From IMG/VR virus record IMGVR_UViG_3300025413_001239: a stretch of 64,000 bases of DNA. One strand, given 5' to 3'. The DNA comes from a virus (lineage: Duplodnaviria; Caudoviricetes). Below the pieces are notes generated by a model. That model saw only the letters and a program-made list of their open reading frames with translations, ran no database searches and had not been told where the DNA came from. A program made the translations under genes and the position numbers. Each line of letters starts with the position of its first letter. Position 1 is the first letter of the stretch. Positions 1,725-52,994 of the stretch are shown piece by piece.

Positions 1725-4043
1725 ATGAAATTATATAAATTATATTCCCAATTACTTAACGAGGATTTTAAATCACAAACTGTTAATTTTATCAGACAAG
1801 GATTTGAACCAGATATTGTTAAGTCATACATTGATAAATTCAAACACATACGAGATAATAAATACAAAGAAATCTTTGATGAAAATTTAAAAGTATCTGT
1901 ACCTTCAAAAGAAAGGTTAAATATTGATGCTTATAAAAATTTCCATGATTTGGAGGTTGTTGTTGATTATGTATCTGGTAAAAGAGCCGTCAATACCAAT
2001 ATGACAAAAGGCGGTAAAGAAAATATTGAAGTTGATGGAACCCCAATTTATGATGATAAAAATTATGAAGTTTATTATGCTGATACACCTAGAGCTTGTA
2101 TAAAGTATAAGGGTAAATTTCCGTATTCTTGGTGTGTTGCTAGGTCGGATTCAGCGAATATGTTTTACACTTATCGTTTTAAACCCTACGAACCAGCTTT
2201 TTATTTCATTAAGAATAAAAAGGAAACTGATAAGGAATTTAGTCTTTGGAACATGGGTAAGAATGTGTTTCAAGGTAAATTTAGTAACCCTTATCACTTT
2301 TTTGTTATTCAAGTTCCAAAAAATGCAAATATTGATGATAACAAAACACAACAGTATATTGTAACATCAGCAAATAATGATGGTGATAAACAAATGAGTT
2401 GGGATGAAATTATTGCTATAAATCCTAATTTAAATTCAATTAAAGAAGTCTTAGTACCTAAACCACTCAGTGAAGGTGAAAGAAAGAAAATTGAAAGATT
2501 TAAAAATGGTATTAATGATAAGGAATTTGCTAAGTTAACCTATGAAGAAAAAAGAGATTATCTGGATATATACCCAACAATTGGTAGACCAATAACATCA
2601 AAACAATTAAAGGAGTTACCAGATGACCTACTAAATTTATATGTTTCTTTTGGTATTGGTTTAGATGATGAAGGTTTTGAATTTATAAAACCTAAAAAAG
2701 ACATTCTTAAAAGATATGCTCAAATAAGCAAAAGAAAACTTGAAGAATACTTAAAAACAGACAATTATCAGAGAAAACAACTTAAGATGATGTATAGTGA
2801 GTTAATTGTTTTATCCGATGAAGACATTAAGAGTTATTTGGAAAGTTTAAAACCTTATGAGATAAAACAATTTATACGTTTAAATGGTGAAGATAAATTT
2901 GAATTATTAGAAAAGCATTTACCTGATAAATTTGGTGCTCAGTTTCAATCTAATAAACAGCTTATTTTAATGGCCCAGTCTGGTGATGAAGAAGCATTAA
3001 ACAAATTAGCTTCATTAATACCAGAAGATATCGAATTTGATTTTTATGGTAAGTACATAGTATTTGAATTTGACAATACTGATAGTGAAAAGTTAAAAAG
3101 AGAATTAGATAACGATACATTGGATTTTTATAGTAGACTAGATTATAACGAATGGAATAGCAGTTATAATAATGATTATTATTTTGATGATGAATCTTCC
3201 CTAAATGATACTTACGATTTTCATATTGAATCGGTGTTAAAAGATGATGAAACACTAAGAGATGATTTACTTAGAATTGGAATCCAACCAGATTTAGAGT
3301 CTGTTAAGGATTTATTAGTAACATATAAAAAAGATTCATCAATTAAAGAATACATGGAAGAAAAGTATTCAGAAGGTAGAGATAATGCTCAAGAAAAAAC
3401 ATGGGAAAAACTTAGGGATGGTATAAAATCAATAGCTTATATTGATGATTATCGTAATTATAGTGTTTATATTAATGTTGCTTCTTTTGTATTTTACTTG
3501 AACGATAATGAATTTTTAACATCGGATATTGATAATTTTATTACAAAAATGGCATATTTACTTGAAAATATAATGGAGGATAACGACCAAATTAGTTATG
3601 TTGAAAGCATGTATGATGAGGTAAATGAAGGTGGTTATGATTTTACCGTTGGTAATGAAGTAAATGAAAGAGTTAAAAGTGAGATTCAAGATGCCATATA
3701 TGAATTTACATCTCAAGATGATGAAGATGAAACAGATTATGCGAATAATTTAGATTCATCAAAAATTCATAAACTTAAAGGTGAGGTTATTAAATTATTA
3801 AATGATACACTTCGTAATCTAGGTCAATCAGAAACTGCGTCAACAATTGAAAATGACATTGTAAGAATTGATATTGATAGACAAAGATTCCATTTAGATG
3901 GTAAAGTATTTGTTAGTATAACTGACAAACAAAATAATAAAAAACATGATGGTTATGTTTATATAAAAGACTTACCAACTTACTTTAAAAATTATAAATT
4001 GTTTGAAACAATACAAAGAATAAAATCAATAATTAAGTATTAA
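1725..4043 (+). CDS. large hypothetical protein (772 aa), TATTTATA promoter class
   Basis: long ORF with acidic C-terminal half; TATTTATA just upstream. Confidence 0.8.
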   Translation: MKLYKLYSQLLNEDFKSQTVNFIRQGFEPDIVKSYIDKFKHIRDNKYKEIFDENLKVSVPSKERLNIDAYKNFHDLEVVVDYVSGKRAVNTNMTKGGKENIEVDGTPIYDDKNYEVYYADTPRACIKYKGKFPYSWCVARSDSANMFYTYRFKPYEPAFYFIKNKKETDKEFSLWNMGKNVFQGKFSNPYHFFVIQVPKNANIDDNKTQQYIVTSANNDGDKQMSWDEIIAINPNLNSIKEVLVPKPLSEGERKKIERFKNGINDKEFAKLTYEEKRDYLDIYPTIGRPITSKQLKELPDDLLNLYVSFGIGLDDEGFEFIKPKKDILKRYAQISKRKLEEYLKTDNYQRKQLKMMYSELIVLSDEDIKSYLESLKPYEIKQFIRLNGEDKFELLEKHLPDKFGAQFQSNKQLILMAQSGDEEALNKLASLIPEDIEFDFYGKYIVFEFDNTDSEKLKRELDNDTLDFYSRLDYNEWNSSYNNDYYFDDESSLNDTYDFHIESVLKDDETLRDDLLRIGIQPDLESVKDLLVTYKKDSSIKEYMEEKYSEGRDNAQEKTWEKLRDGIKSIAYIDDYRNYSVYINVASFVFYLNDNEFLTSDIDNFITKMAYLLENIMEDNDQISYVESMYDEVNEGGYDFTVGNEVNERVKSEIQDAIYEFTSQDDEDETDYANNLDSSKIHKLKGEVIKLLNDTLRNLGQSETASTIENDIVRIDIDRQRFHLDGKVFVSITDKQNNKKHDGYVYIKDLPTYFKNYKLFETIQRIKSIIKY

Positions 4044-4092
4044 AACTAGTTCTTAAAGTCACTAAAAAAAAAATTTTTTAAAAATAATTCAA

Positions 4093-4140
4093 AAAAAACT
4101 TGACAATTCAAAAACTTTTCGTATATTTGCATATATTTAT
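4093..4140 (+). promoter_or_regulatory. tandem promoter of tRNA cluster 1 (TATATTTGC plus TATTTAT boxes)
   Basis: aaaaaacttgacaattcaaaa...gtatatttgcatatatttat; the first 21 nt are identical to 51444-51464. Confidence 0.7.
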
Positions 4141-4165
4141 TAACAACAAGTAACAATTAAAAGAT

Positions 4166-4264
4166 ATGAAAAAGGCATATACATATTATCAACCGAAAAC
4201 GCAAGGGGGCAAAACTCCTAATAGGCTGGGTGTATCTTTTTCTGATGAAGATGATTGTAAGTAA
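4166..4264 (+). CDS. putative leader peptide MKKAYTYYQPKTQGGKTPNRLGVSFSDEDDCK of tRNA cluster 1
   Basis: 32-codon ORF between promoter and terminator hairpin; below the ORF-track cutoff. Confidence 0.6.
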   Translation: MKKAYTYYQPKTQGGKTPNRLGVSFSDEDDCK

Positions 4265-4284
4265 ACAATTAGTAAGATATAAGT

Positions 4285-4321
4285 AAACCCCAGTCTGATG
4301 AAAATTCAAACTGGGGTTTTT
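4285..4321 (+). terminator. attenuator-type terminator ahead of tRNA cluster 1
   Basis: aaaccccagt...actggggttt stem plus T-tract, 7 nt before the first tRNA. Confidence 0.7.
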
Positions 4322-4327
4322 AATTTT

Positions 4328-4402
4328 CGGGAAGTTCCACAGATGGCTATATGGGCTTGTTTTGGAGACAAGTGTTCGCTCGTTCGAATCGAGTTTTCCC
4401 GA
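4328..4402 (+). tRNA. tRNA-Pro(TGG)
   Basis: cttgt-ttTGGag-acaag anticodon arm; cgggaag/ttttcccg acceptor; TTCGAAT loop. Confidence 0.8.
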
Positions 4403-4451
4403 CACAGATTGGTTGGTACCGTAGACAGCAAAAATAAGGAACGGTATAAAA

Positions 4452-4539
4452 CTAAGTGTGTAGTCAATCGAAGACGACTCCCTTTGGAGCGGAGAATAGC
4501 TGTAAAAGGCTTATGCAGGTTCGAGCCCTGTCACTTAGA
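4452..4539 (+). tRNA. tRNA-Pro(TGG) with long variable arm
   Basis: ctaagtg/cacttag acceptor; ctccc-ttTGGag-cggag; T-arm gcagg-TTCGAGC-cctgt. Confidence 0.6.
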
Positions 4540-4546
4540 CTAAAAT

Positions 4547-4618
4547 TGGGTTGTGGTGTAATGGTAACTACGTGTGGTTTTGGTCCACAAGTTTGGGGTT
4601 CGAGTCCCTACAACCCAA
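4547..4618 (+). tRNA. tRNA-Gln(TTG)
   Basis: tgggttg/caaccca acceptor; tgtgg-ttTTGgt-ccaca. Confidence 0.85.
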
Positions 4619-4703
4619 CAAAGTAAAGAAGTAATTGGGTTAGCTGTTTTCCGTGGCTGGTCTGATGAAGGTTAAGTCCTTATGATTAAATAACGGATAA
4701 ATT

Positions 4704-4775
4704 GGGATAGCCAGCAGGGTTCTGAAGACAGTCTGTAAAACTGAACTTCGTGTGTTTCGAGTACACCCTATCCCA
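4704..4775 (+). tRNA. atypical tRNA-Tyr(GTA)-like
   Basis: gggatag/ctatccc acceptor; cagt-ctGTAaa-actg; irregular T-arm, short variable region. Confidence 0.55.
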
Positions 4776-4780
4776 CATTT

Positions 4781-4862
4781 GGGTCAGTCGCATAGAGGCA
4801 ATTGCCGCGGACTGTAAATCCGCTCTCTTCGGAGTTCACAGGTTCGAGTCCTGTTTGGCCCA
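4781..4862 (+). tRNA. tRNA-Tyr(GTA)
   Basis: gcgga-ctGTAaa-tccgc; long variable arm; canonical T-arm. Confidence 0.9.
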
Positions 4863-4870
4863 CAAAAAAT

Positions 4871-4941
4871 GCCTCCAAAGCATATATGGTGATGTACCTG
4901 ACTTGTAATCAGGGAAGTTGATTCGAGTTCAACTGGAGGCT
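4871..4941 (+). tRNA. tRNA-Thr(TGT)
   Basis: gcctcca/tggaggc acceptor; cctga-ctTGTaa-tcagg. Confidence 0.85.
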
Positions 4942-4962
4942 CAAGAGTCTTATATAAAAAAT

Positions 4963-5034
4963 GCGGATATAGCACAGTGGTTAGTGTTGGGGTCTTCCAA
5001 ACCTCAGACGTCAGTTCGAATCTGACTATCCGCT
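4963..5034 (+). tRNA. tRNA-Gly(TCC)
   Basis: gcggata/tatccgc acceptor; ggggt-ctTCCaa-acctc. Confidence 0.9.
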
Positions 5035-5193
5035 CATTGGCTAATTTATTTTATAAAATAAATTTGTTTTGATTATGGAAAAAAATTGACTTTTATTGTA
5101 TTTATATGTATATTTGTGACGTAAAAAAGTTTTATAAATAGTGCTTTTGAAATATCTAAGCCACACATAACAAATAAAAATTAATTAATTAAA

Positions 5194-5466
5194 ATGGATT
5201 TAAAGTCTGGTATCAGAAATCCCGAACAGTTACGGGTTGCAATTGAGATTGCTAAGTTAAATAATGAATTTTATTCTGATGCTGTATGGGCAATCCATAA
5301 GTATAAGTGGTATAATTGGTATCAGAATCTGCACATTAAAGAAAATAGTCTAGAGGATATTGAGAATACTAAAATCTTTAATCAATTAGAAACTGAATAT
5401 CCGAGTATTCATGTGGATATTGAAAAAAATATTGATTATGAGATTATTAAAGCTAGTGCAAATTAA
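5194..5466 (+). CDS. hypothetical protein
   Basis: ORF followed by hairpin aaaagacgt/acgtctttt. Confidence 0.65.
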   Translation: MDLKSGIRNPEQLRVAIEIAKLNNEFYSDAVWAIHKYKWYNWYQNLHIKENSLEDIENTKIFNQLETEYPSIHVDIEKNIDYEIIKASAN

Positions 5467-14410: not shown

Positions 14411-16360
14411 ATGATTAAAATAAATGATGTGATAGAAGGAAAAATAAGCGTTAACCATAGTGGTTCCGCTTATTTGGTTAGTGAGCAATCACCAAAGGAT
14501 ATTTATGTTCATAAAAACAATATTAATAAAGCATTTCATTTGGATGTTGTTAAGATTAAAATAGTTAATGGTCGTGGTCGTGAACTTGAAGGTGTCGTTA
14601 CTGAGATAGTTAAAAGATTCAGAGACGAATTTGTTGGTAGTATTCAAATATCAAAAAAACATGCATTCTTTATACCAGATAGTAACAAGATGCCGATAGA
14701 TTTCTTTATACCTCTAACAAAATTAAAAGGTGCTAAAGATGCTCAAAAAGTTGTTGTTAAATTAACATCTTGGAAAGATAACAGTAAAAACCCTAATGGT
14801 GAAGTTATAAAGATTCTAGGTGAAGCTGGTGATAATGAAGTAGAAATTCACTCAATACTCCATGAGTATGATTTACCCTATGACTTTGAACCTGACATTT
14901 TGGCTGAAGCTGAGGCGATATCGAGTGAGATAAGACAGTCTGACATAGATGCTCGTAGAGATATGAGGGATGTACTTACTTTTACAATTGACCCAGTAGA
15001 TGCCAAGGATTTCGATGATGCTTTATCAGTACAATGGGTTAATGGTCAACTTGAAGTTGGTGTTCATATTGCCGATGTATCACATTATTTAAGACCAGAT
15101 ACGGACTTAGATAAAGAAGCTTATCGTAGAGGTACCAGTGTTTACTTAGTTGATAGAGTTGTACCAATGCTTCCAGAAAGGCTTTCTAATGGCTTATGTA
15201 GTCTTAGACCACATGAAGAGAAGTTGTGTTTTTCAGCGATATTTACGCTTGACCAAAATGCAACAATTGTAAATGAATGGTTTGGAAGAACAATTATTAA
15301 TTCTGACCATAGGTTTACATATGAAGGAGCCCAAGAAATAATTGAAGGTAAACCACATTTCTATGAGTCTGATGAACTTGATGTTAATGGTGGATATGTT
15401 AAAACGCTTGGTGGTATGATAAAAGATGCGGTATTAGCTCTTGATAAGTATGCTAAAAAGCTTAGAAAGCAAAGACTTGGTGAAGGTTCAATTACTTTCG
15501 ATAAGCAAGAAATAAGATTCAAATTGGATGAAAACAACAAGCCAGTTGACCTTATATTCAAGATAGCTAAAGACTCAAATCAATTGATTGAAGAATTCAT
15601 GCTTTTAGCGAATAGAAGGGTTGCTTATTTGTTAAATCACAATGATTACCCAGATATCAATCGTGTGCATGAGGAACCAAGTCAAGAAAAGCTTTTAGCA
15701 TTAAAGCAATTTATTAAGCAATTTGGTTATGATATTAAGGTAAATACACCTGAGGAAATAACTTTATCACTTAACAAATTACTTGCTAGTGTTAAGGGTA
15801 AAGCTGAAGAAAACATAGTTTCTAACCTTGTGGTTAGGTCAATGCAGAAAGCGGCTTATTCTACAAAGAACTTAGGTCATTATGGTCTTGGATTTGAAGA
15901 TTACGCTCATTTCACCAGTCCAATTAGAAGATATCCAGACGTAATGGTGCACAGACTTCTAGGACGCTATTTAGAGGCTAAAGCAGCCCCTAAATTAGAT
16001 AAGTTGGAGTCAAGGTGCCAATACTTATCTGAACGTGAAAGAAAGGCTCAAAAAGCTGAAAGAGATAGCATCAAGTATATGCAATGCATATATATGAGTG
16101 AAAGAATTGGTAATGTTTATAAAGGACTTATCACTTCGGTTACTGATTATGGTATGTTTATAACAATTTGTGAAAATAATTGTGAGGTATTGGTAAAATT
16201 AACATCAATCAATGGAACTTGGTTGGTGGATTTAAAAAAATATCAAATAGTTGAATTTGACACTAAAGAAAAAATAAGATTAGGTGATTATGTTCATGTA
16301 GTTATTACTAAAGTTGATGTTGAAAAAAAGAATATTGATGCATCAATTATGCTTCTCTAA
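14411..16360 (+). CDS. rnr: ribonuclease R
   Basis: TIDPVDAKDFDDALS, HFTSPIRRYPD, CSD and S1 domains. Confidence 0.95.
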   Translation: MIKINDVIEGKISVNHSGSAYLVSEQSPKDIYVHKNNINKAFHLDVVKIKIVNGRGRELEGVVTEIVKRFRDEFVGSIQISKKHAFFIPDSNKMPIDFFIPLTKLKGAKDAQKVVVKLTSWKDNSKNPNGEVIKILGEAGDNEVEIHSILHEYDLPYDFEPDILAEAEAISSEIRQSDIDARRDMRDVLTFTIDPVDAKDFDDALSVQWVNGQLEVGVHIADVSHYLRPDTDLDKEAYRRGTSVYLVDRVVPMLPERLSNGLCSLRPHEEKLCFSAIFTLDQNATIVNEWFGRTIINSDHRFTYEGAQEIIEGKPHFYESDELDVNGGYVKTLGGMIKDAVLALDKYAKKLRKQRLGEGSITFDKQEIRFKLDENNKPVDLIFKIAKDSNQLIEEFMLLANRRVAYLLNHNDYPDINRVHEEPSQEKLLALKQFIKQFGYDIKVNTPEEITLSLNKLLASVKGKAEENIVSNLVVRSMQKAAYSTKNLGHYGLGFEDYAHFTSPIRRYPDVMVHRLLGRYLEAKAAPKLDKLESRCQYLSERERKAQKAERDSIKYMQCIYMSERIGNVYKGLITSVTDYGMFITICENNCEVLVKLTSINGTWLVDLKKYQIVEFDTKEKIRLGDYVHVVITKVDVEKKNIDASIMLL

Positions 16361-28735: not shown

Positions 28736-28807
28736 GGTGAGGTAGCTCAGTAGTAGAGCACAATTTTGAAAAGATTGGTGTCGGTAGTGCGAATCTGCCC
28801 CTCACCA
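28736..28807 (+). tRNA. tRNA-Phe(GAA)
   Basis: ggtgagg/cctcacc acceptor; caatt-ttGAAaa-gattg; T-loop TGCGAAT; own promoter. Confidence 0.75.
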
Positions 28808-37934: not shown

Positions 37935-38005
37935 GGTTCTATAGCTCAACGGCAGAGCTGGACTCTCTAAAAGTCTTGATGTTGGTTCGATTCCGACTAG
38001 AATCA
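37935..38005 (+). tRNA. amber-suppressor tRNA (anticodon CTA)
   Basis: ggttcta/tagaatc acceptor; agct D-stem; ggact-ctCTAaa-agtct; gttgg-TTCGATT-ccgac; own TATATTTGC promoter. Confidence 0.85.
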
Positions 38006-38053
38006 CACTTTACATTTTTTAACAATTATTGTATATTTATAAAAAAAAGAAAT

Positions 38054-38410
38054 ATGACACATTAGGTATCTAACACTGAGAAATTAAGAGTAATCACAAG
38101 AAGAGACTTGAGTTTAGGGTATCAAGCAACAATGGCATGTCATGCTGCAATAGACTTTCAGCACGAACATATAGCTGAGTCGATACAATGGCACAAGTCA
38201 TCTAATTATTTAGCCATTTTAACTGTTAAAGACGAACAAGAACTTATTGACTTAATGGTCAAAGTTAGTCTTAGAGGTATTAAGTATACCATTTTCCGTG
38301 AACCAGATTTAGAGAATCAAATTACAGCTGTGGCTTTAGAAGCTACAAATGCTAGTAAAAAAGTAACAAGTTCTTTACCATTACTTGGAAAGGAGGTAAG
38401 TTATGTATAA
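38054..38410 (+). CDS. Pth2-like peptidyl-tRNA hydrolase with in-frame TAG at codon 4
   Basis: ATG ACA CAT TAG GTA...KLRVITRRDLSLGYQATMACHAA...FREPDLENQITAVAL...SLPLL. Confidence 0.75.
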
Positions 38411-39382: not shown

Positions 39383-39471
39383 ATTAAAGGGAGAAGAAAT
39401 TCTCCTTTTTTATTTGGTAGTGTTAAGTAAATACCATATATTTGCATTTTATTAAACATAAAATTATACGC

Positions 39472-41442
39472 ATGAAAAATTTACTTACATTGATTTGCTT
39501 ATTAGTAACATTTCAATTAATCGCACAAGACACAATTAAGTCAAAGACTCTAGAACCAATACAAATTACTTGTGTTAGGGCTGATAAGAAAATCCCAGTA
39601 ACACAAAAAACGCTCTCCGATTCGGCTATTCAAGCGAATTATCAGGGTCAAGAAATACCTATGTTGTTAGGTTCTCAAACATCAATTTACACGAATTGTG
39701 ATGGTGGTCATAACGCTGGTTATAGTTACTTTAGCATCAGGGGTATTGACCAAACAAGAATAAACATAACTCTTAATGGTGTTCCATTGAATGAAGGTGA
39801 AGACATGGCTTGTTATACGTCTAATTATCCAAGTTTTACCAGCGCAATTCAATCTATGCAAATTCAACGTGGTGTGGGTACATCATCTAACGGCGCATCA
39901 TCCTTCGGTGGCTCATTGAACTTTCAAAGCAAGGATGGCCTTATTAAGGGTACTGATATTCAAATAGGTGGTGGTTCATTTAATACATCAAGATTTGACA
40001 TATCCACATCCACAGGTTTATCCAAACACAAATTAGCCTTATTCGCTAATATTGGTGGTATACAAACTGATGGCTTTAGAGATAATTCAGGTTGTAAGGG
40101 TGGTTCCGCTTTTGTGAGTCTTGGTTACTTCGGGAAGTCTAGTATTACAAAACTTAACCTATTAACAGGAATATCACAAAACAAACAAGCTTGGATGGGT
40201 TCAAGTGATTCAGCATTAGCAGCTAATTATCGTGATAACCCAAGAGGTGGTGATAATATGGATAATTTCAATCAAACGAATGTTCAATTGCAGAACATAA
40301 CAATGTTTAATACACGGTTTAAATTAACCAGCACTGCGTTTTATAATTACTTAGATGGTCACTATAATGTGTTTAACTTAAAGGATATACCAGTTAATAA
40401 TTATTTTGCATACGAAAGCCAGTATTCACGATGGATTGGTGCGGTAACTCAATTAGATTATAACTATGGTGATTTTAAGGTTACTTCAAGCCTTTCAGCC
40501 AGTACTTATACGAGGTTCCATAATGGTTATGAGATTTACGATACAACACTTACTGAATATCCCTATACTAATAGTGGTAAAAAGAATGATGCAAATGCAT
40601 TCATAAAGTTTAGTTATGACACTAAAAGAGTCTTGTATTATATCGACTTACAAGAAAGATTTGTTGATTATAAGTACTCTGGTGATACAAGTGTTTATCA
40701 AAGCTGGAAGTTCTTTAACCCAAAGGCTGGTGTTAAGTTCTTCATAAACAAGAGTTTGGATGTGTATTGGAGCGTAGGTTTATCTCATAGAGAACCAACA
40801 CACTCAATAATGCTTAATGGTTGGTTGTACTTAAACTCTTATAATCCGATTACAATAGTTAAGCCTGAGGAAGTAATTGATAATGAAATAGGTGTAAATT
40901 ACACGTCAAGTAAACTAAAATTACAAGCTAATGTTTATGTAATGAAATTTACGAATGAAATGATAGCTGCTGGGCCGATGGGTAATAACAGTCTTCCTAT
41001 TATGATGAATGTTCCTAATAGTCTAAGATATGGCTTCGAATTTGATTGTACTTATAAAGTAAATAAGTCGTTTACTTATGATATTAATTCAACATTATCT
41101 AATGGTCAGTTTAAAGTTGATAGCGGTACGTATAGCTACTTATTTAATCCAAATTTTATGTTTAAGCATTCGATTAACTATACACATAATAAGTTATTTG
41201 TAAGCCTTAATCAAGCATATATTTCAAGAGTTTACATTGATAAGGCTAATCAATTTACTTTGCCAATATCATCTACAATCGGTTTGAATCTTGGATATAC
41301 CTTTGGTCGTTATCAAGTATCAATTCAGGGTAACAATTTAACAGGTGAGAAGACTTATAGCAATGGTTCAGTTACTGGTGTTAGGTATAGAATACCTAAC
41401 GCTTTACAAAATTACTTCATAACCCTTAAAATACACTTATGA
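39472..41442 (+). CDS. TonB-dependent receptor
   Basis: signal peptide, plug motifs (SIRG, RINITLNGVPLN, IQRGVGTSSNG..SFGGSLN), beta-barrel, C-terminal YFITLKIHL. Confidence 0.9.
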   Translation: MKNLLTLICLLVTFQLIAQDTIKSKTLEPIQITCVRADKKIPVTQKTLSDSAIQANYQGQEIPMLLGSQTSIYTNCDGGHNAGYSYFSIRGIDQTRINITLNGVPLNEGEDMACYTSNYPSFTSAIQSMQIQRGVGTSSNGASSFGGSLNFQSKDGLIKGTDIQIGGGSFNTSRFDISTSTGLSKHKLALFANIGGIQTDGFRDNSGCKGGSAFVSLGYFGKSSITKLNLLTGISQNKQAWMGSSDSALAANYRDNPRGGDNMDNFNQTNVQLQNITMFNTRFKLTSTAFYNYLDGHYNVFNLKDIPVNNYFAYESQYSRWIGAVTQLDYNYGDFKVTSSLSASTYTRFHNGYEIYDTTLTEYPYTNSGKKNDANAFIKFSYDTKRVLYYIDLQERFVDYKYSGDTSVYQSWKFFNPKAGVKFFINKSLDVYWSVGLSHREPTHSIMLNGWLYLNSYNPITIVKPEEVIDNEIGVNYTSSKLKLQANVYVMKFTNEMIAAGPMGNNSLPIMMNVPNSLRYGFEFDCTYKVNKSFTYDINSTLSNGQFKVDSGTYSYLFNPNFMFKHSINYTHNKLFVSLNQAYISRVYIDKANQFTLPISSTIGLNLGYTFGRYQVSIQGNNLTGEKTYSNGSVTGVRYRIPNALQNYFITLKIHL

Positions 41443-42958: not shown

Positions 42959-44194
42959 TTAAATAACAATTAAATCGTTATTTATTTGATTACGGACATT
43001 ATTGTTCATAATCACACTAGTGTAATCCAGTGGCTTTGTCATTGAAGCAAGGTGATTGTCGTAATATCTTTTCATTATGTTGATAGCTGAGTTTAAATCT
43101 CTATCTATTTCGACATTATCACTTAGTTTAACAGTTCTATCCTTTAACTCAACTTTATCTTTAAATAGCTTACCAGTAAGACTATTCAATTGAGTGGTGT
43201 ATTTTTCATCAATCTTAATTAAATCACATTGTTTATTTTGTGACTTATACTTAAGAAATTCTAAGAACATATTAATATTAGATTCATTAAATGATTTTCT
43301 AATACCCTTTTTATTCTTATTTACTCCTTCTGTTGACATAAGGGTTTTTACTGTTAAATCGCCAACTACAATTGTTTTGTAGTTCATATTCACTAATTTT
43401 TTACTCTGAATATGTAGAGTTTGTTTAATTTGACTATTCTTCTTATTATATAGTTTTCTTTTAACTTTATTTAATTTATTAAAGGATTTACTATTCTTTT
43501 GTTTTTTGCTTAACTTAGACTTAATCTTATTAATCTGTTTACCGAAGTACTGATTAATCCTCTTTGATTTATTTTTAAGAATAACAACGGTACCATTGTT
43601 ATCCACACCAGTACCTAAATTCTTTAGACCTAAATCAATAGCGAGTACTCTTGATTTAATTATTAAATCATCTGAGTAGTTTATTTTATCATCGACAACA
43701 ATATCACAAAGCCACTTATTATTAATAAATTTGACTCTAATTTCTTTAATATTTAATTCAGATAAGTTTGTTAAATGACTTGAATATTTAAAATTAATTT
43801 TATTTATTGAAATTATACTATTTTCTTTGAATATCCAACCATTTAGGTTAAAAACTAATGTATGATACTTTCCGAGTTCTTTTGTCTTTGGTGGTCTAGC
43901 TGTATTATCTTTTTTAATAAGTGTGAAGAAAGATTGGTATGATTGAAATATTTCAGCTGCCACAACTTGTGCTGCTTTTGCATTAAATTGTTTCCAAGAT
44001 TCCTTGGTTGAATATTTCAATGGTGGAATGAGGTTAATTAAATCAAACTTTGAGTATACCTTTTTAGTTGATTCATAGTGTTTTTGCTGAATATCAATAA
44101 GAGTGTTCCAAATATCCATACGAATATCAGACAACTGTTTTAGTTGAGATACCTGTTCTGTTGTTGGGTGTAACCTTATTGAGTATGTTTTCAT
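42959..44194 (-). mobile_element. tnpB: IS200/IS605-type TnpB RNA-guided nuclease without TnpA, rearranged-RuvC type
   Basis: KTYSIRLHPT; AIDLG; VVGDL; IDEKYTTQ; DRDLNSAINI. Confidence 0.85.
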
Positions 44195-46128: not shown

Positions 46129-47271
46129 ATGATAGATAAAATTGGTATTAGATATACGTTTAAGATTTCGGTACCACTAGATGTTTTAAAGATAAAAGAA
46201 GTTTTTACTAAGAATGGTCATCAACTATTTCTAGTTGGTGGTTGTATTCGTGATACCATATTAAATGTAACACCTAAAGATTTTGATTTAGTTACAAATG
46301 TTTCGCCAGAAGAGGTTATTAGAATTTTAAAGCATGAAAAGTTTGTTACAACAATATTAGAAACTGGAAAATCATTTGGTGTTATTAATGTTATAACTAG
46401 CGATAATGAATTTGAAATTGCTACGATGCGCAATGATGTGTTTAGTGATACACCAAATGGGAGGCATCCAGACCGTGTTATCTTTGGTGATATTTTTACT
46501 GATTGTATGCGAAGGGATTATACCATGAATGCGCTTTTTTATGACTTAGATACTAATGAAATAATTGACTTCGTTAATGGTGTTAATGATATTGAAAAAT
46601 CTTTAATTAAGGCGGTTGGGAATCCAGAAGAAAGATTTAAAGAAGATAAATTACGCAAACTTAGGGGCGTTAGGCTGGCGGCCAGATTTGGCTCTGAATT
46701 GGACCCTGAGATTGATGCCGCATTAAAAAGAGATGCCAGTCTGGAAGGTATATCTGGTGAAAGAATCAGAGATGAGTTTATAAAGGGTATCAAATCAGCT
46801 AAGTCAGTTGTTAAATTCTTGGAAATGCTTGATAGGTATCATTTATTTAATTGGATATTTAAGGGCTTACATGTAAATAAAGACTTTATTGAGGATAGAA
46901 ATGTTGTAGTTCTTATTGCTATTTTATTAAAGGGTAACAACATAGGTGTTATAGCTAAGCAATTGAACAATCTTAAGTATTCTGTTGATGAGATTAAATC
47001 AATCACATTCTTATTGAGTTTATTGCATTTAACACCTGAGACAGCAGTTGCTTTAAAGAGACAACAAAAGAACGCTTACACATCAAATCATCAAATAATT
47101 GATTTTGCTAACCGTGAAGGTTTAAATACAAGATTGATACATGCGTTTTTAAATTTTGAGTTGACCGTTACTGGCGAAGAAGTTATGCAAAAGTTCAATT
47201 TGAAGCAAGGCAAAGAGTTAGGTGATATGATAAATAAATTGGAATTGGATAATTTTAAAAAAAGTTTGTAA
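46129..47271 (+). CDS. cca: CCA-adding tRNA nucleotidyltransferase
   Basis: LVGGCIRD, KDFDLVT, RRDYTMNA, EDKLRKLRGVR, SGERIRDE. Confidence 0.9.
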   Translation: MIDKIGIRYTFKISVPLDVLKIKEVFTKNGHQLFLVGGCIRDTILNVTPKDFDLVTNVSPEEVIRILKHEKFVTTILETGKSFGVINVITSDNEFEIATMRNDVFSDTPNGRHPDRVIFGDIFTDCMRRDYTMNALFYDLDTNEIIDFVNGVNDIEKSLIKAVGNPEERFKEDKLRKLRGVRLAARFGSELDPEIDAALKRDASLEGISGERIRDEFIKGIKSAKSVVKFLEMLDRYHLFNWIFKGLHVNKDFIEDRNVVVLIAILLKGNNIGVIAKQLNNLKYSVDEIKSITFLLSLLHLTPETAVALKRQQKNAYTSNHQIIDFANREGLNTRLIHAFLNFELTVTGEEVMQKFNLKQGKELGDMINKLELDNFKKSL

Positions 47272-49275: not shown

Positions 49276-50568
49276 ATGAAGTGTATTAAAACAAGGAAAA
49301 TTCAGTTGTTGCCATTAGGTGATTTTAATGAAACCTACAAATACGTTAATAATTTAAGTTCAGGCTTAGCGTCACTCGGTAATGAAATGATAAGGAGACA
49401 TGTTTTATCATTTTATGAAATGGACGTACTAAAAGATTCAACTCCAGATGCTAAAACTAGAACTAATCTAATGAAGGAAAAATACGGAATGTCACTCCAA
49501 AATATGGGTTATGATGTTTCAAAAAAGTATTCAGCCACAATTCCTTCGAATATTCGCACAACATTTAATCAAAAGGTCTTTAAAAAAATAAAAGACAGTT
49601 ATTTTGGTATTTCAATAAATAAAGAATCTATACCATCATTCAGAAAAGACTCAATGGCAATTCCATTTAGTTATGATAATAATATCAGTTTGAACGAATT
49701 TGGGGTGTATGATTTTAAATTCTTTAATAATGTCAATTTTAAATTAAACTTTGGACGTGATAGGTCTAATAATAAAGTTATCATTGACAGAATTTTATCT
49801 AATGAATATAAGCCATTATCTTCACATATAAAAATTGATAAGAAAAAAATATTCTTAGATTTAACATATTCTTTTGACTCAGATGAAAATGTTAACATAT
49901 CTAAAGATAAAATTGTTGGTGTTGATTTAGGTATAAATAGACCTATGACAATTGCTAGGGAAGATGGTACTTATGCAAAACAAATAGAAATCGGTGGTAA
50001 GATTCAATACTCTAGATTATCAATTCAAAAACAAAGAAGAAGCTTACAAAGTGCTTTAAGGCATTCATCTGGTGGTCATGGTACTGGTAAAAAAATAGCT
50101 AAATTAAAATCATTAAAAGATTATGAACATAATTTCATGAAAACCACTAATGATACACTAAGTCGTGAATTAATAAAATATTGCGTTAATGAAGGTGTTG
50201 GTGTAATTAAATTAGAAAATCTAACTGGTATAACAGAAAATGCTAATAATTTTCTTAAGTCTTGGTCTTATTATCAATTACAACAAATGATTGAGTATAA
50301 AGCTGCTGAATTTGGAATTACAGTATTATATGTTAATCCTAGATATACCTCTCAAACTTGTCCAACTTGTGGCAATATTGATAAAACTCAAAGAGATTCA
50401 AAGGATAAAACAAAATTTGCTTGTTCAAATGAAATTTGTTCTGATATTAATATAAATAAAGATGCTGATATTATTGGTGCCTTTAATATCTCAAAAAGAG
50501 ATGGTGTTATCGCTTCTAAAAAAATATTACAAGAAAAAAGTGATAAAAAGTTGTTAGTTTCAGAATAA
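49276..50568 (+). CDS. cas12f: type V-F Cas12f-like RNA-guided nuclease (430 aa)
   Basis: RuvC D217 (GVDLG), E314 (KLENL), D398 (DADI); CPTC zinc finger; GGHG and W-YYQLQQMIEYKA motifs resemble AsCas12f1; abuts tracr and array. Confidence 0.85.
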   Translation: MKCIKTRKIQLLPLGDFNETYKYVNNLSSGLASLGNEMIRRHVLSFYEMDVLKDSTPDAKTRTNLMKEKYGMSLQNMGYDVSKKYSATIPSNIRTTFNQKVFKKIKDSYFGISINKESIPSFRKDSMAIPFSYDNNISLNEFGVYDFKFFNNVNFKLNFGRDRSNNKVIIDRILSNEYKPLSSHIKIDKKKIFLDLTYSFDSDENVNISKDKIVGVDLGINRPMTIAREDGTYAKQIEIGGKIQYSRLSIQKQRRSLQSALRHSSGGHGTGKKIAKLKSLKDYEHNFMKTTNDTLSRELIKYCVNEGVGVIKLENLTGITENANNFLKSWSYYQLQQMIEYKAAEFGITVLYVNPRYTSQTCPTCGNIDKTQRDSKDKTKFACSNEICSDININKDADIIGAFNISKRDGVIASKKILQEKSDKKLLVSE

Positions 50569-51443: not shown

Positions 51444-51531
51444 AAAAAACTTGACAATTCAAAATAAGTTTGTATATTTGCATTGTAATTAAAAAATTTT
51501 ACACTTTTTAAAAAAGTGACATATTTATAAC
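51444..51531 (+). promoter_or_regulatory. promoter of tRNA cluster 2 (TATATTTGC and TATTTATA boxes)
   Basis: 21-nt identity with 4093-4113. Confidence 0.7.
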
Positions 51532-51559
51532 AAAAGGGAAACCCATAAACAAAAAGATA

Positions 51560-51643
51560 ATGATAAACGTTAACAACATATTTAATTTTAATTTTGAAGC
51601 AGCTGAGGCAGATTTTAGCCATCAGAGGGTTGAGGTATTGTAG
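51560..51643 (+). CDS. putative leader peptide MINVNNIFNFNFEAAEADFSHQRVEVL* (TAG) of tRNA cluster 2
   Basis: 27-codon ORF between promoter and terminator. Confidence 0.6.
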   Translation: MINVNNIFNFNFEAAEADFSHQRVEVL

Positions 51644-51672
51644 TTAACGAATCGAAAGAAACATATTAAACG

Positions 51673-51703
51673 AAAGCCCTTAACCAAAAGTTAAGGGTTT
51701 TTT
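51673..51703 (+). terminator. attenuator-type terminator ahead of tRNA cluster 2
   Basis: aaagcccttaac-caaaa-gttaagggtttt plus T-tract, about 10 nt before tRNA-Asp. Confidence 0.75.
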
Positions 51704-51712
51704 ATTTATATT

Positions 51713-51783
51713 CGAGGTGTAGTTTAGTGGTAAAATGCCGCACTGTCTATGCGGTGTCACGATTTCGATTATCGTCATCTCGG
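51713..51783 (+). tRNA. tRNA-Asp(GTC)
   Basis: cgaggtg/catctcg acceptor; ccgca-ctGTCta-tgcgg. Confidence 0.85.
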
Positions 51784-51785
51784 CA

Positions 51786-51870
51786 CGGAAAAAATTCCTA
51801 GGGATAGGAACTATCTTGATAAAGATAAGTACTGCACGAATCATAATAAGTTCGAATCTTAATTTTCCGC
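51786..51870 (+). tRNA. atypical tRNA-Ile(GAT)-like
   Basis: cggaaaa/ttttccg acceptor; tatc-ttGATaaa-gata (8-nt loop); TTCGAAT loop. Confidence 0.5.
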
Positions 51871-51910
51871 AACGGAGAATCACAACTCTAAAAAAAATGT
51901 GAAACTGGAG

Positions 51911-51983
51911 GGGGGGTCATGTACCAAGGCTGGCGAGAAATACTTGCAATATTTCTGGAAGATTTCAATTATCTTACTCTCCA
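51911..51983 (+). tRNA. tRNA-Ala(TGC)
   Basis: aaata-ctTGCaa-tattt; acceptor ggggggt/actctcc with G3.U70. Confidence 0.75.
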
Positions 51984-52046
51984 CAGGTGTCACTGATATA
52001 CTGACCGAGCATGGGGATTAGTAATAATCCCTAGTATATCTAATAA

Positions 52047-52121
52047 GGTGCCGTAGCTGAGATGGTTTAGCGGTTGGTTGAAGCCCAGCGACTTACAAGG
52101 GTTCGATTCCCTTCGGTACCA
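52047..52121 (+). tRNA. tRNA-Phe(GAA)
   Basis: ggtgccg/cggtacc acceptor; gttgg-ttGAAgc-ccagc. Confidence 0.85.
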
Positions 52122-52178
52122 GATAGTCAATGTTAATCCACCTGCACGTTGGTGATTATCGCACACTAGGAATAGTGA

Positions 52179-52586
52179 CTAAGTGATTAACAAAGTTCTT
52201 TGATTTATGATATTAGCAATAATATCAAGAAATTTTTTAGATGTATTTATTTTGAATTTTTGTTGAAATGATGTATCAATAATACATAAATCAATTTTAT
52301 TTTCAATACATGATTTAAATTTATTCTGGTCATTTATTTGTGTCTGGTTTAATTTATTAATACCGAAAATCGGTTCATAATGAAATATTCCATTCAATTC
52401 AAATGCTAAATTAAGTGACGGAATGTAGATGTCTAATTCAGAACCGATTGCATCCTTCTTATTATAGTCTATTTGTAGATTAGGGTAAAGAATTGTTAAT
52501 TGTTCTTCAAGATATATTTCGAGTTTAGAGCGTCTTGTGCCAGTTGTTTTATGTTTATTATAATTGTGAGTAAATTGAATAAAAAT
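52179..52586 (-). pseudogene. 5'-truncated PD-(D/E)XK/DUF559-like endonuclease inside tRNA cluster 2
   Basis: ELDIYIPSLNLAFELNGIFHY; no start codon outside tRNA-Glu. Confidence 0.55.
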
Positions 52587-52672
52587 GCTATGGTCGACTA
52601 GTGGCTCAGGTCGCATCCCTTTCAAGGATGTGGGGAGAAATCCCCTCACGGGTTCGAATCCCGTCCATAGTA
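52587..52672 (+). tRNA. tRNA-Glu(TTC) with long variable arm
   Basis: gctatgg/ccatagt acceptor; catcc-ctTTCaa-ggatg; gggga-gaaa-tcccc extra arm. Confidence 0.8.
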
Positions 52673-52994
52673 CAAATGTTTTAGTTATGATTAAGCGAAC
52701 AATTAGTGGTAGTTTTACTAATATGGTAAAACCTGACCCAAGTGTTATGAAAGATAGTGATTTTGATTTGTTATCGTTCTGATAGAACACTGGTTGTATT
52801 CACAATATGTAAGAGCGCATATACCAATTGCTGCTTTATGGGACAGAAAAGTTGAGGGGAAAGTTCGATTCTTTCGAAGGACACATTATTAACAAGTTAA
52901 AAAAAATGAGCGCAATGAAACAGCTGGACGCAATGTCACCAATCAGATAAGAGAAGAAAGAAAGGTTCTGATTGGTACGAGACAAACACGAAAA

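What the first reader, a model, noticed from the sequence alone, without database searches (positions are those of the whole stretch)
4093..5034. Leader-peptide attenuator on tRNA cluster 1 whose codons match the tRNAs it controls
Seen: promoter, then a 32-aa ORF MKKAYTYYQPKTQGGKTP... (4166-4264), then a strong hairpin with T-tract (4285-4321), then tRNAs Pro, Pro, Gln, Tyr, Tyr, Thr, Gly. 12 of codons 5-18 specify Tyr/Thr/Gln/Pro/Gly. Leader segment aggctggg (4223-4230) can pair with the terminator 5' arm cccagtct (4289-4296), 8 bp with one G.U, as an antiterminator. Established: this is the layout of ribosome-mediated amino-acid attenuators. Inference: the phage senses shortage of exactly these charged tRNAs and then transcribes its own copies. 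I know of no described tRNA operon regulated this way.
Basis: partly seen in the sequence, partly recalled or inferred. Interest (0 to 1): 0.9.

Follow-up and report, generated by a model that had tools for sequence, protein, structure and literature searches.

The report
Leader-peptide attenuators gating phage tRNA operons
A large uncultured phage places a tiny translated "test" gene and a switchable transcription stop in front of its tRNA gene clusters. Each test gene is spelled in the amino acids whose tRNAs follow, so the phage probably makes those tRNAs only when ribosomes decode their codons slowly, a control I could not find described for tRNA genes.

Summary
A Bacteroidota-type promoter (4100-4129) is followed by a 32-codon ORF (4166-4264), a -16 kcal/mol hairpin with a T-tract (4285-4327), and tRNA-Pro at 4328.

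- **Codon match.** 12 of codons 5-18 are Tyr/Thr/Gln/Pro/Gly and the other two are Lys. This is the most extreme of 422 ORFs in the window.
- **Second unit.** A near-identical promoter at 51451 drives a leader with the core FNFNFEAAEADF, a terminator, then tRNAs Asp, Ala, Phe and Glu.
- **Relatives.** Scans with the promoter motif recovered about 30 related units in viral and metagenomic contigs. They fall into four classes: PQYTGK, DEFA, CVL and WSHINR(M). Each leader matches its own downstream tRNA set, and the four sets together cover all 20 amino acids.
- **Terminator geometry.** Every unit has a terminator 21-32 nt after the stop codon.
- **Antiterminator.** In classes A-C a segment just after the regulatory codons pairs with the terminator's 5' arm, with compensatory changes between lineages.

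No RNA data could be obtained. I found no published description. Other readers of this scan have noted the same design on other DNA and elsewhere in this genome. I class it as a new variant of leader-peptide attenuation.

The parts
4100..4129 (+). Promoter of tRNA operon 1 (upstream TTGACA element, 16-nt spacer, -7 box TATATTTG)
   Evidence: The same roughly 45-nt promoter recurs at 51451 and in front of tRNA operons in about 30 related contigs. TAnnTTTG is the Bacteroidota -7 consensus (my own knowledge).
4166..4264 (+). Leader ORF, 32 codons, A-rich upstream region without a Shine-Dalgarno sequence
   Evidence: The ORF is kept open in all class-A relatives. pN/pS is 0.22 over the first 24 codons in one subclade.
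4178..4219 (+). Regulatory codon run YTYYQPKTQGGKTP (codons 5-18)
   Evidence: Read. It is the top scorer of 422 ORFs. Binomial p for residues 2-20 is 3.7e-6 against the window's amino-acid background.
4223..4230 (+). Candidate antiterminator 5' strand (aggctggg), pairs with 4289-4296
   Evidence: RNAduplex -15.5 kcal/mol, p=0.04 against shuffled leaders. In the class-A alignment 93% of cells pair and 2 pairs show compensatory changes, against 18-55% for slid controls.
4285..4327 (+). Intrinsic terminator: hairpin 4285-4319 plus T-tract, directly abutting tRNA-Pro
   Evidence: -15.8 to -16.1 kcal/mol. Terminator pairs are 95.6% conserved in class A. RNAalifold recovers it as the consensus structure.
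4328..4403 (+). tRNA-Pro (UGG)
   Evidence: ARAGORN. Not reported by Rfam tRNA at E<=1.
4452..4540 (+). Atypical tRNA-like RNA (9-nt anticodon loop CUUUGGAGC, long extra arm). ARAGORN calls it Pro(tgg) here, and Pro(tgg) or Ser(gga) in relatives
   Evidence: (20.9 bits, below threshold).
4547..4619 (+). tRNA-Gln (UUG)
4704..4776 (+). tRNA-Tyr-like cloverleaf (loop CUGUAAA) with a degenerate D arm; unconfirmed
   Evidence: Fold. Not called by ARAGORN or Rfam.
4781..4863 (+). tRNA-Tyr (GUA)
4871..4942 (+). tRNA-Thr (UGU)
4963..5035 (+). tRNA-Gly (UCC)
51451..51480 (+). Promoter of the second unit, near-identical to 4100-4129
51560..51643 (+). Second leader ORF, 27 codons, core FNFNFEAAEADF
51628..51635 (+). 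Candidate antiterminator strand GGTTGAGG, pairs with CCTTAACC at 51678-51685
   Evidence: -12.4 kcal/mol, p=0.01. Compensatory differences to the L061 and L014b lineages were read.
51672..51705 (+). Intrinsic terminator of the second unit (hairpin plus T-tract)
51713..52673 (+). tRNA operon 2: Asp(GUC) 51713-51784, Ala(UGC) 51911-51984, Phe(GAA) 52047-52121, Glu(UUC) 52587-52673
   Evidence: Ala is found only with ARAGORN's relaxed threshold.

Best explanation
These are ribosome-mediated (leader-peptide) transcription attenuators placed in front of phage tRNA operons.

Proposed sequence of events:
1. Transcription starts about 7 nt after the -7 box, near 4136 (inferred).
2. The 32-codon leader is translated while RNA polymerase moves on.
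3. If ribosomes decode the Tyr/Thr/Gln/Pro/Gly(/Lys) run (4178-4219) quickly, they run on to the stop codon at 4262-4264. There they sit between, or on top of, the antiterminator strand and the terminator. The hairpin 4285-4319 with its T-tract forms, and transcription ends just before tRNA-Pro.
4. If decoding of those codons is slow because the charged cognate tRNAs are scarce, the ribosome stalls upstream of 4223-4230. That segment pairs with the 5' arm of the terminator (4289-4296) before the 3' arm is made. Polymerase reads through and the phage's own Pro, Gln, Tyr, Thr and Gly tRNAs are produced. RNase P would then cut off the leader.
5. Supply of those tRNAs restores fast decoding and shuts the operon down again, giving negative feedback.

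The unit at 51451-52673 does the same for Asp/Ala/Phe/Glu.

Shown here: the anatomy, the leader-tRNA correspondence across four classes, the conservation of the terminator, and the conserved, co-varying antiterminator pairing.

Inferred: that the leader is translated, the direction of the switch, and the physiological trigger. Candidate triggers are host tRNA loss during infection or through tRNA-cleaving defence, or simple homeostasis.
For: 1. Anatomy is confirmed at the stated coordinates.
2. The leader is the most extreme of 422 ORFs in the window.
3. A second unit in the window has the same promoter and a different leader that matches a different tRNA set.
4. The promoter motif retrieved related contigs. 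The selected leader units are 10 class A, 6 class B, 8 class C and 6 class D; two further units turned up in L077 and L088.
5. The fraction of leader residues in the cognate tRNA set is 0.69/0.42/0.46/0.69. Against non-cognate sets it is 0.04-0.37, and background is 0.32/0.22/0.15/0.29. Per-leader binomial p ranges from 1e-2 to 3.5e-10.
6. In the most divergent class-A leader (a TARA contig) residues 2-24 are all K/T/Y/Q/P/G, and the operon holds exactly Pro, Lys, Gly, Gln, Tyr and Thr tRNAs.
7. Every unit has a -12 to -17 kcal/mol hairpin plus T-tract. The stop-to-hairpin gap is 21-32 nt. The hairpin-to-first-tRNA gap is 6-20 nt in all but two of the 24 class A-C units (45 and 54 nt), which leaves little or no room for a promoter.
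8. No -7 box lies on the + strand between 4130 and 5058.
9. The best partner of the terminator 5' arm lies just 3' of the regulatory run in all class A-C units, with per-unit shuffle p of 0.003-0.17.
10. Class A keeps 93% of antiterminator cells paired with 2 compensatory pairs.
11. Classes B and C use different sequences per lineage that remain complementary: GGTTGAGG/CCTTAACC, GGTCGAG/CTCGACC, AAGGTCA/TGACCTT; ACTGGG/CCCAGT, GGCTGGG/CCCAGCC, ATGGGT/ACCCAT.
12. Cognate leader-arm duplexes are stronger than non-cognate ones: -12.4 against -9.7 kcal/mol, within-class permutation p about 1e-4.
13. In the ribosome-position scan the terminator arm is sequestered (P 0.6-0.85) while the A site is inside the regulatory run. 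It is free (P 0.03-0.3) once the ribosome has passed the run. This holds in all four classes.
14. The frame is kept open, and third-position changes dominate in class A (pN/pS 0.22). Replacements in the core stay within the cognate set, for example V/L/C swaps in class C and E/D/N/A swaps in class B.
Against: - There is no transcript, 3'-end or ribosome-profiling evidence.
- The antiterminator evidence is moderate, not decisive. Shuffled leaders also sequester the arm fairly often (mean P 0.45-0.6 against 0.56-0.85 observed; single-unit p 0.02-0.5). Relatedness of the sequences inflates the permutation tests.
- Class D shows no significant antiterminator duplex.
- In the window's leader 1 the antiterminator strand ends about 30 nt before the end of the stop codon. 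A terminating ribosome therefore does not cover it and could only act as a wedge.
- A trp-like 1:2 'protector' helix is not supported (72% paired against 60-62% for slid controls).
- By strict wobble only 9 of the 14 core codons are read by tRNAs of the window's own operon. AAA x2 and GGC have no cognate there, and ACT and CCT need four-way U34 reading.
- Two of the listed tRNAs are atypical or unconfirmed.
- A sensor of charged tRNA also responds to amino-acid starvation, when making more tRNA would not help.
Confidence: 0.78

Rival explanations
1. The leader is translated and senses decoding speed, but the output is not classical antitermination. It could be, for example, transcript stability or RNase processing of the tRNA precursor, or a reversed logic in which fast translation favours read-through.
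For: The antiterminator is only moderately supported and is weak in class D. In class A a ribosome at the stop codon does not cover the antiterminator strand (distances).
Against: The leader ORF always stops 21-32 nt before the hairpin. A ribosome therefore cannot melt the terminator as in pyrBI-type coupling. The antiterminator position is conserved and the pairing co-varies in classes A-C. The ribosome-position scan gives the classical polarity in all classes.
Confidence: 0.12
2. The small ORFs are ordinary small protein genes (class C looks like a signal peptide) with their own terminators. On this view the tRNAs are expressed by leaky read-through, and the compositional match has no regulatory meaning.
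For: The class C core ILVLCLCVLVL, preceded by MKK, resembles a signal peptide. Leader peptides are conserved within each class.
Against: Four classes with quite different compositions each match their own tRNA set. Substitutions preserve set membership rather than residue identity or order. The peptides are 24-34 aa, and two neighbouring small ORFs that were scanned against Pfam had no match; the leader peptides themselves were not scanned against any protein family library. Most terminators abut the first tRNA by 6-20 nt, and the whole unit shares one dedicated promoter.
Confidence: 0.05
3. A ribosome-independent RNA sensor (T-box-like), in which the codon run binds tRNA anticodons directly.
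For: The layout is leader plus terminator/antiterminator, and the codon-like triplets are cognate to the tRNAs.
Against: There is no T-box or other riboswitch match. The start codon, in-frame stop and open frame are conserved, with synonymous third-position variation. Many different codons are present rather than one specifier. The leaders share no conserved structured core.
Confidence: 0.03
4. A chance ORF next to a chance hairpin.
For: Short ORFs and A/T-rich hairpins are common in AT-rich DNA.
Against: The ORF is the top of 422 in the window. The design recurs in about 30 units and four classes with matched composition.
Confidence: 0.01

Closest known systems
Multivalent leader-peptide attenuators of enterobacterial amino-acid operons (thrL: Thr+Ile; ilvL of ilvGMEDA: Ile/Leu/Val; also hisL, leuL, trpL, pheL)
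   Same: A short translated leader holds a run of regulatory codons. An intrinsic terminator lies before the first gene. An alternative pairing uses the terminator's 5' arm and is freed by a ribosome stalled on the run. Several amino acids are sensed in a single leader.
   Different: The controlled genes here are tRNA genes, not biosynthetic enzymes. The leader lists five to seven amino acids, often with several synonymous codons each. The system is encoded by a phage with a Bacteroidota-type promoter. There is no sequence match to the Rfam leader families. No conserved 1:2 protector helix was found.
pheST (phenylalanyl-tRNA synthetase) operon attenuator of E. coli
   Same: A leader peptide with cognate codons senses charged tRNA and controls a component of the translation apparatus itself, giving a feedback loop on decoding capacity (my own knowledge).
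   Different: It controls a synthetase for one amino acid, not the tRNAs. It is cellular, not viral.
T-box riboswitches
   Same: Both regulate a terminator/antiterminator choice according to tRNA charging status.
   Different: T-boxes bind uncharged tRNA directly without translation, have a conserved T-box sequence and a single specifier codon, and control synthetase and amino-acid genes. No T-box match was found here.
Phage tRNA clusters as currently described (T4 tRNA region; T5-like and huge-phage tRNA arrays; tRNAs that counter anticodon nucleases, PARIS or retrons)
   Same: They are arrays of phage tRNA genes thought to replace or supplement host tRNAs (PMC10264068, PMC11464382, PMC11555353, PMC7162821).
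   Different: Of these papers I text-searched only PMC10264068 and PMC7162821, and neither contains 'attenuat' or 'leader'. On-demand control by leader peptides was not found in any of the literature searches.

Membership tests
Leader-peptide (ribosome-mediated) transcription attenuators | Short ORF in the 5' leader with a run of codons cognate to what the operon supplies | tested here: met
   12/14 codons by amino acid (14/14 with Lys). Top of 422 ORFs. Four classes match their own tRNA sets.
Leader-peptide (ribosome-mediated) transcription attenuators | Intrinsic terminator between the leader ORF and the first controlled gene, with no promoter in between | tested here: met
   Hairpin of -16 kcal/mol plus T-tract ends at 4327 and the tRNA starts at 4328. 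No -7 box on the + strand between 4130 and 5058. The same holds in all 30 units.
Leader-peptide (ribosome-mediated) transcription attenuators | Alternative antiterminator helix that shares the terminator's 5' arm and is available only when the ribosome stalls on the regulatory codons | tested here: inconclusive
   Pairing is present and positionally conserved in classes A-C, with compensatory changes and the expected switch in the ribosome scan. However, the shuffled controls are only weakly lower and class D is not significant.
Leader-peptide (ribosome-mediated) transcription attenuators | Leader is translated; read-through rises when the cognate charged tRNA is limiting | not testable with these tools
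The only indirect support is the conserved open frame and pN/pS of 0.22.
Leader-peptide (ribosome-mediated) transcription attenuators | Controlled genes are amino-acid biosynthesis, transport or synthetase genes | tested here: not met
   The downstream genes are tRNAs. This is the point of difference.
Rfam leader families (His_leader, Thr_leader, Leu_leader, Trp_leader and others) | Match to the family covariance model | tested here: not met
   No such hit at gathering score in the window, nor at E<=1 in 3900-5300. The only hit there is a weak L10_leader match (E=0.24) that rests on the terminator.
T-box riboswitch | Stem I with a specifier loop and the conserved T-box sequence (Rfam RF00230) | tested here: not met
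   No hit.
pyrBI-type coupling attenuator | Leader ORF runs through the terminator, so that a closely following ribosome blocks the hairpin | tested here: not met
   The stop codon lies 21-32 nt upstream of the hairpin in all units.

The most novel reading that the evidence does not exclude
The phage family carries a complete tRNA-supply homeostat. Four multivalent attenuators (PQYTGK, DEFA, CVL, WSHINRM) together monitor the decoding of all 20 amino acids. Each switches on only the matching phage tRNA operon. This would let the phage replace host tRNAs on demand, for instance when the host's tRNAs are degraded during takeover or cut by anticodon-nuclease defence systems. It would be the first case of tRNA genes regulated by ribosome stalling on their own codons.
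Probability: 0.55. Interest if true: 0.92.

Novelty: new variant of a known kind. Interest (0 to 1): 0.85.

Why it matters
Why phages carry tRNAs, and when they use them, has been debated for decades. Proposed roles include codon compensation, replacement of degraded host tRNAs, and escape from tRNA-cleaving immunity (PMC10264068, PMC11464382, PMC11555353).

A leader-peptide switch written in the codons of the tRNAs it controls would show that the phage measures decoding speed itself and answers with the matching tRNAs. That makes the 'replacement on demand' idea directly testable with reporter fusions.

It would also extend ribosome-mediated attenuation from amino-acid metabolism to tRNA genes and to viruses. 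It offers compact, codon-specific sensors of tRNA availability. It gives a simple sequence signature (promoter, matched mini-ORF, terminator, tRNAs) for annotating such operons in large phage genomes.

Tried and rejected
- **DNA similarity to known phages** found only tRNA matches.
- **The upstream 772-aa protein** has one relative, in a 595-kb uncultured phage, but that locus has no tRNAs. It gave no IMG/VR relatives.
- **Rfam** gave no leader, riboswitch or T-box family. A weak L10_leader hit (E=0.24) rests on the terminator only and was rejected.
- **A trp-like 1:2 protector helix** in class A is not supported: 72% paired against 60-62% for slid controls. RNAalifold recovers only the terminator and a small GGGGG/CUCCU hairpin.
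- **Shuffled-leader control.** 'Probability that the terminator arm is paired upstream' against shuffled leaders proved a weak discriminator, so I do not lean on it.
- **Column-wise covariation for classes B and C** could not be counted on the MAFFT alignments, because lineages are offset by one column. The pairings were read lineage by lineage instead.
- **Met-tRNA promoters** in relatives show no leader ORF or terminator, so not every tRNA promoter in these phages is attenuated.
- **The genome-contig scan** found no host chromosomal use of the motif. It found only two more phage-like units, on contigs binned to unlikely organisms.
- **Eight literature searches and look-ups** found no description of leader-peptide control of tRNA genes.
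Full report
**1. The observation**

- A promoter-like site has TTGACA at 4100-4105 and TATATTTG at 4122-4129. TAnnTTTG is the -7 consensus of Bacteroidota promoters (my own knowledge).
- After an A-rich stretch without a Shine-Dalgarno sequence, an ATG at 4166 opens a 32-codon frame ending at 4264.
- Codons 5-18 (4178-4219) encode YTYYQPKTQGGKTP. Twelve of the fourteen are Tyr/Thr/Gln/Pro/Gly and two are Lys.
- A hairpin with arms CCCCAGT at 4288-4294 and ACTGGGG at 4310-4316 (about -16 kcal/mol) is followed by TTTTTAATTTT, and tRNA-Pro starts at 4328.
- The 8-bp pairing aggctggg (4223-4230) with cccagtct (4289-4296), with one G.U, is correct.

As a test against chance, I scored all 422 ATG-ORFs of at least 20 aa in six frames of the window. 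This ORF is the single highest scorer for the P/Q/Y/T/G set. Only one of 24,151 14-residue windows reaches 12.

The tRNA list needs two corrections.

- The second 'Pro' (4452-4540) is an atypical tRNA-like RNA with a 9-nt loop and a long extra arm, below the Rfam threshold.
- The first 'Tyr' (about 4704-4776) is a cloverleaf-like fold with loop CUGUAAA that neither ARAGORN nor Rfam calls.

**2. A second unit in the same window**

The pattern TTGAC-N-TATATTTG occurs four times in the window against 0.1 expected. The copy at 51451 is almost identical to the one at 4100 over about 35 nt.

It is followed by:

- a 27-codon ORF (51560-51643) with the core FNFNFEAAEADF;
- a 13-bp hairpin plus T-tract (51672-51705);
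- tRNA-Asp, tRNA-Ala(UGC) (found with a relaxed ARAGORN threshold), tRNA-Phe and tRNA-Glu.

The two leaders share the promoter but not the sequence, and each is rich in the amino acids of its own tRNA cluster.

Single tRNA genes at 28736 and 37935 have a -7 box directly upstream and no leader.

**3. Relatives**

No whole genome is held. The upstream 772-aa protein has only one distant relative, in a 595-kb uncultured phage without synteny. I therefore searched public collections with the promoter motif and with the conserved string that follows it.

Most hits lie in front of tRNA arrays. After removing duplicates there are about 30 units in four classes.

| Class | Leader core | Downstream tRNAs |
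|---|---|---|
| A (window unit 1 and 9 others) | Y/T/Q/P/K/G-rich | Pro, Gln, Tyr, Thr, Gly, Lys |
| B (window unit 2 and 5 others, plus L077) | F/D/E/A-rich | Asp, Phe, Glu, Ala (Met in one unit) |
| C (8 units) | such as ILVLCLCVLVL | Cys, Val, Leu |
| D (6 units, plus L088) | such as NSISWRRNSRSN | Trp, Ser, His, Ile, Asn, Arg, Met |

Together the four sets cover all 20 amino acids.

The fraction of leader residues that belong to the cognate tRNA set is 0.69, 0.42, 0.46 and 0.69 for classes A to D. Background is 0.32, 0.22, 0.15 and 0.29, and non-cognate sets give 0.04-0.37. For residues 2-20 the binomial p of single leaders ranges from 1e-2 to 3.5e-10.

In the most divergent class-A leader, from a TARA ocean contig, residues 2-24 all fall in K/T/Y/Q/P/G. 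Its operon holds exactly Pro, Lys, Gly, Gln, Tyr and Thr tRNAs.

**4. Terminator and antiterminator**

Every unit has a hairpin of -12 to -17 kcal/mol followed by a T-tract. The gap from stop codon to hairpin is always 21-32 nt. In all but two of the class A-C units (45 and 54 nt) the first tRNA starts 6-20 nt after the hairpin, which leaves little or no room for a separate promoter. In class D a conserved 56-58-aa ORF with no Pfam match lies between the terminator and the tRNAs.

The strongest partner of the terminator's 5' arm within the leader lies just after the regulatory run in all class A-C units.

- Per-unit p against dinucleotide shuffles is 0.003-0.17. It is 0.04 for window unit 1 and 0.01 for window unit 2.
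- In the class-A alignment 93% of antiterminator cells are paired, with compensatory changes in two pairs. Slid controls give 18-55%. The terminator itself scores 95.6%.
- In classes B and C the lineages use different sequences that stay complementary:
  - Class B: GGTTGAGG/CCTTAACC, GGTCGAG/CTCGACC, AAGGTCA/TGACCTT.
  - Class C: ACTGGG/CCCAGT, GGCTGGG/CCCAGCC, ATGGGT/ACCCAT.
- Cognate leader-arm duplexes are on average stronger than non-cognate ones: -12.4 against -9.7 kcal/mol, with within-class permutation p about 1e-4. Relatedness inflates this figure.

I also ran a simple ribosome-position scan. The RNA was folded from 13 nt after the A-site codon up to the start of the 3' arm.

- While the A site is anywhere in the regulatory run, the terminator arm is sequestered with P 0.6-0.85.
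- Once the ribosome has passed the run, P falls to 0.03-0.3.
- The switch point coincides with the end of the run in all four classes.

There are weaknesses.

- Shuffled leaders also sequester the arm fairly often.
- Class D has no significant duplex.
- In class A the antiterminator ends about 30 nt before the end of the stop codon, so a terminating ribosome separates the two strands rather than covering one. In classes B and C it ends 7-14 nt before the end of the stop codon and would be covered.
- A trp-like 1:2 helix is not supported.

**5. Evidence that the frame is read**

- All units keep an ATG-to-stop frame of 24-34 codons in AT-rich DNA.
- In one class-A subclade the first 24 codons give pS 0.345 and pN 0.076, a ratio of 0.22.
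- Where residues change in the core they mostly stay in the cognate set: V/L/C swaps in class C, E/D/N/A swaps in class B, and I/N/H/S/R rearrangements in class D.
- This pattern fits selection on which tRNAs are called for, rather than on a peptide's structure.

**6. Mechanism**

The best-supported reading is classical ribosome-mediated attenuation applied to tRNA operons.

- Fast decoding of the run lets the ribosome reach the stop codon. The terminator forms and transcription ends before the tRNAs.
- Slow decoding stalls the ribosome upstream of the antiterminator strand. That strand captures the terminator's 5' arm, and polymerase reads into the tRNA genes.
- The new tRNAs then restore fast decoding, which is negative feedback.

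A pyrBI-type mechanism is excluded by geometry, because the ORF ends well before the hairpin. A T-box-like mechanism is unlikely: there is no Rfam match, and the frame is conserved with synonymous variation.

By strict wobble the window's own operon reads 9 of the 14 core codons. Counting U34 four-way reading of ACT and CCT raises this to 11. Lys codons and GGC have no cognate in this window, although relatives carry Lys and Gly(gcc) tRNAs in the same operon.

**7. Context**

The window also encodes the following:

- an RNase R/II-like nuclease (14411-16360);
- a CCA-adding enzyme (46129-47271);
- a suppressor tRNA (37935-38006);
- two TnpB-like genes;
- a TonB-dependent receptor plug protein;
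- an OmpA-domain protein.

Related contigs are classed as viral, and one of them is 160 kb at 45% estimated completeness. This is a large phage with a translation-oriented gene set and Bacteroidota-type promoters.

**8. Novelty**

Eight literature searches and look-ups found no description of leader-peptide control of tRNA genes. They included the eLife paper on phage tRNAs and anticodon nucleases and the Nature paper on huge phages.

Other readers and follow-up agents of this scan have noted the same design on other genomes. First readers have also noted it on this genome, including class C and D units just upstream of this window. I reached my reading before those look-ups. I tested the four-class pattern on my own loci, but I could not read the DNA outside the window.

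The mechanism type is known; the target (tRNA genes), the 'checklist' leaders and the viral setting are new. I therefore class it as a new variant of a known kind and score interest at 0.85.

Noticed in passing
window 4452-4540; also L004, L026, L038: An 89-90-nt tRNA-like RNA with a 9-nt anticodon loop (CUUUGGAGC) and a long extra arm is conserved as the second gene of class-A operons. ARAGORN calls it Pro(tgg) or Ser(gga), and Rfam tRNA scores it below threshold. Its function is unknown.
   Followed up: partly
window 37935-38070: A tRNA with anticodon CUA (amber suppressor) has its own -7 box promoter. About 48 nt downstream an ORF begins ATG ACA CAT TAG, so it has an in-frame TAG at codon 4.
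   Followed up: no
L016 2430-3100, L017, L041, L039 (minus strand, first promoter): The same tRNA-operon promoter drives a 650-900-nt GC-richer, apparently non-coding region. The copies share the string TAAACTATTCAAAAGGTAGCAAG. There is no Rfam match at gathering score.
   Followed up: partly
L006 4154-4340, L064, L035, L059, L058: Promoters in front of tRNA-Met genes carry 180-420-nt leaders with no mini-ORF or terminator. They do carry a conserved element containing TCAGCAAA. Not all tRNA promoters of these phages are attenuated.
   Followed up: partly
L005 2891-3058, L006, L030, L035, L029: In class D a conserved 56-58-aa ORF (starting MSE..RYKKLG) lies between the terminator and tRNA-Trp, so it is co-regulated with the tRNAs. 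It has no Pfam match.
   Followed up: partly
window 14411-16360, 46129-47271, 42959-44194 (-), 49276-50568, 39442-41442: Genes for an RNase R/II-like exoribonuclease, a CCA-adding enzyme, two TnpB/IS605 OrfB-like proteins and a TonB-dependent receptor plug protein lie on the same phage fragment.
   Followed up: partly
L077 (contig binned as Methanobacterium sp.), L088 (binned as Gammaproteobacteria): Class B and class D attenuator-tRNA units with the phage promoter occur on contigs assigned to unlikely organisms. These are probably mis-binned phage contigs.
   Followed up: no
L005 2601 and 2689; L029 158 and 236; L030 1965 and 2055; L004 418 and 519: Many units carry a second -7 box promoter copy 80-100 nt upstream of the main one, giving tandem promoters.
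   Followed up: no
window 4201-4215: A small hairpin GGGGG/CUCCU inside the regulatory run (codons GGG GGC AAA ACT CCT) is the only other element in the class-A consensus fold. It could be a pause hairpin.
   Followed up: no
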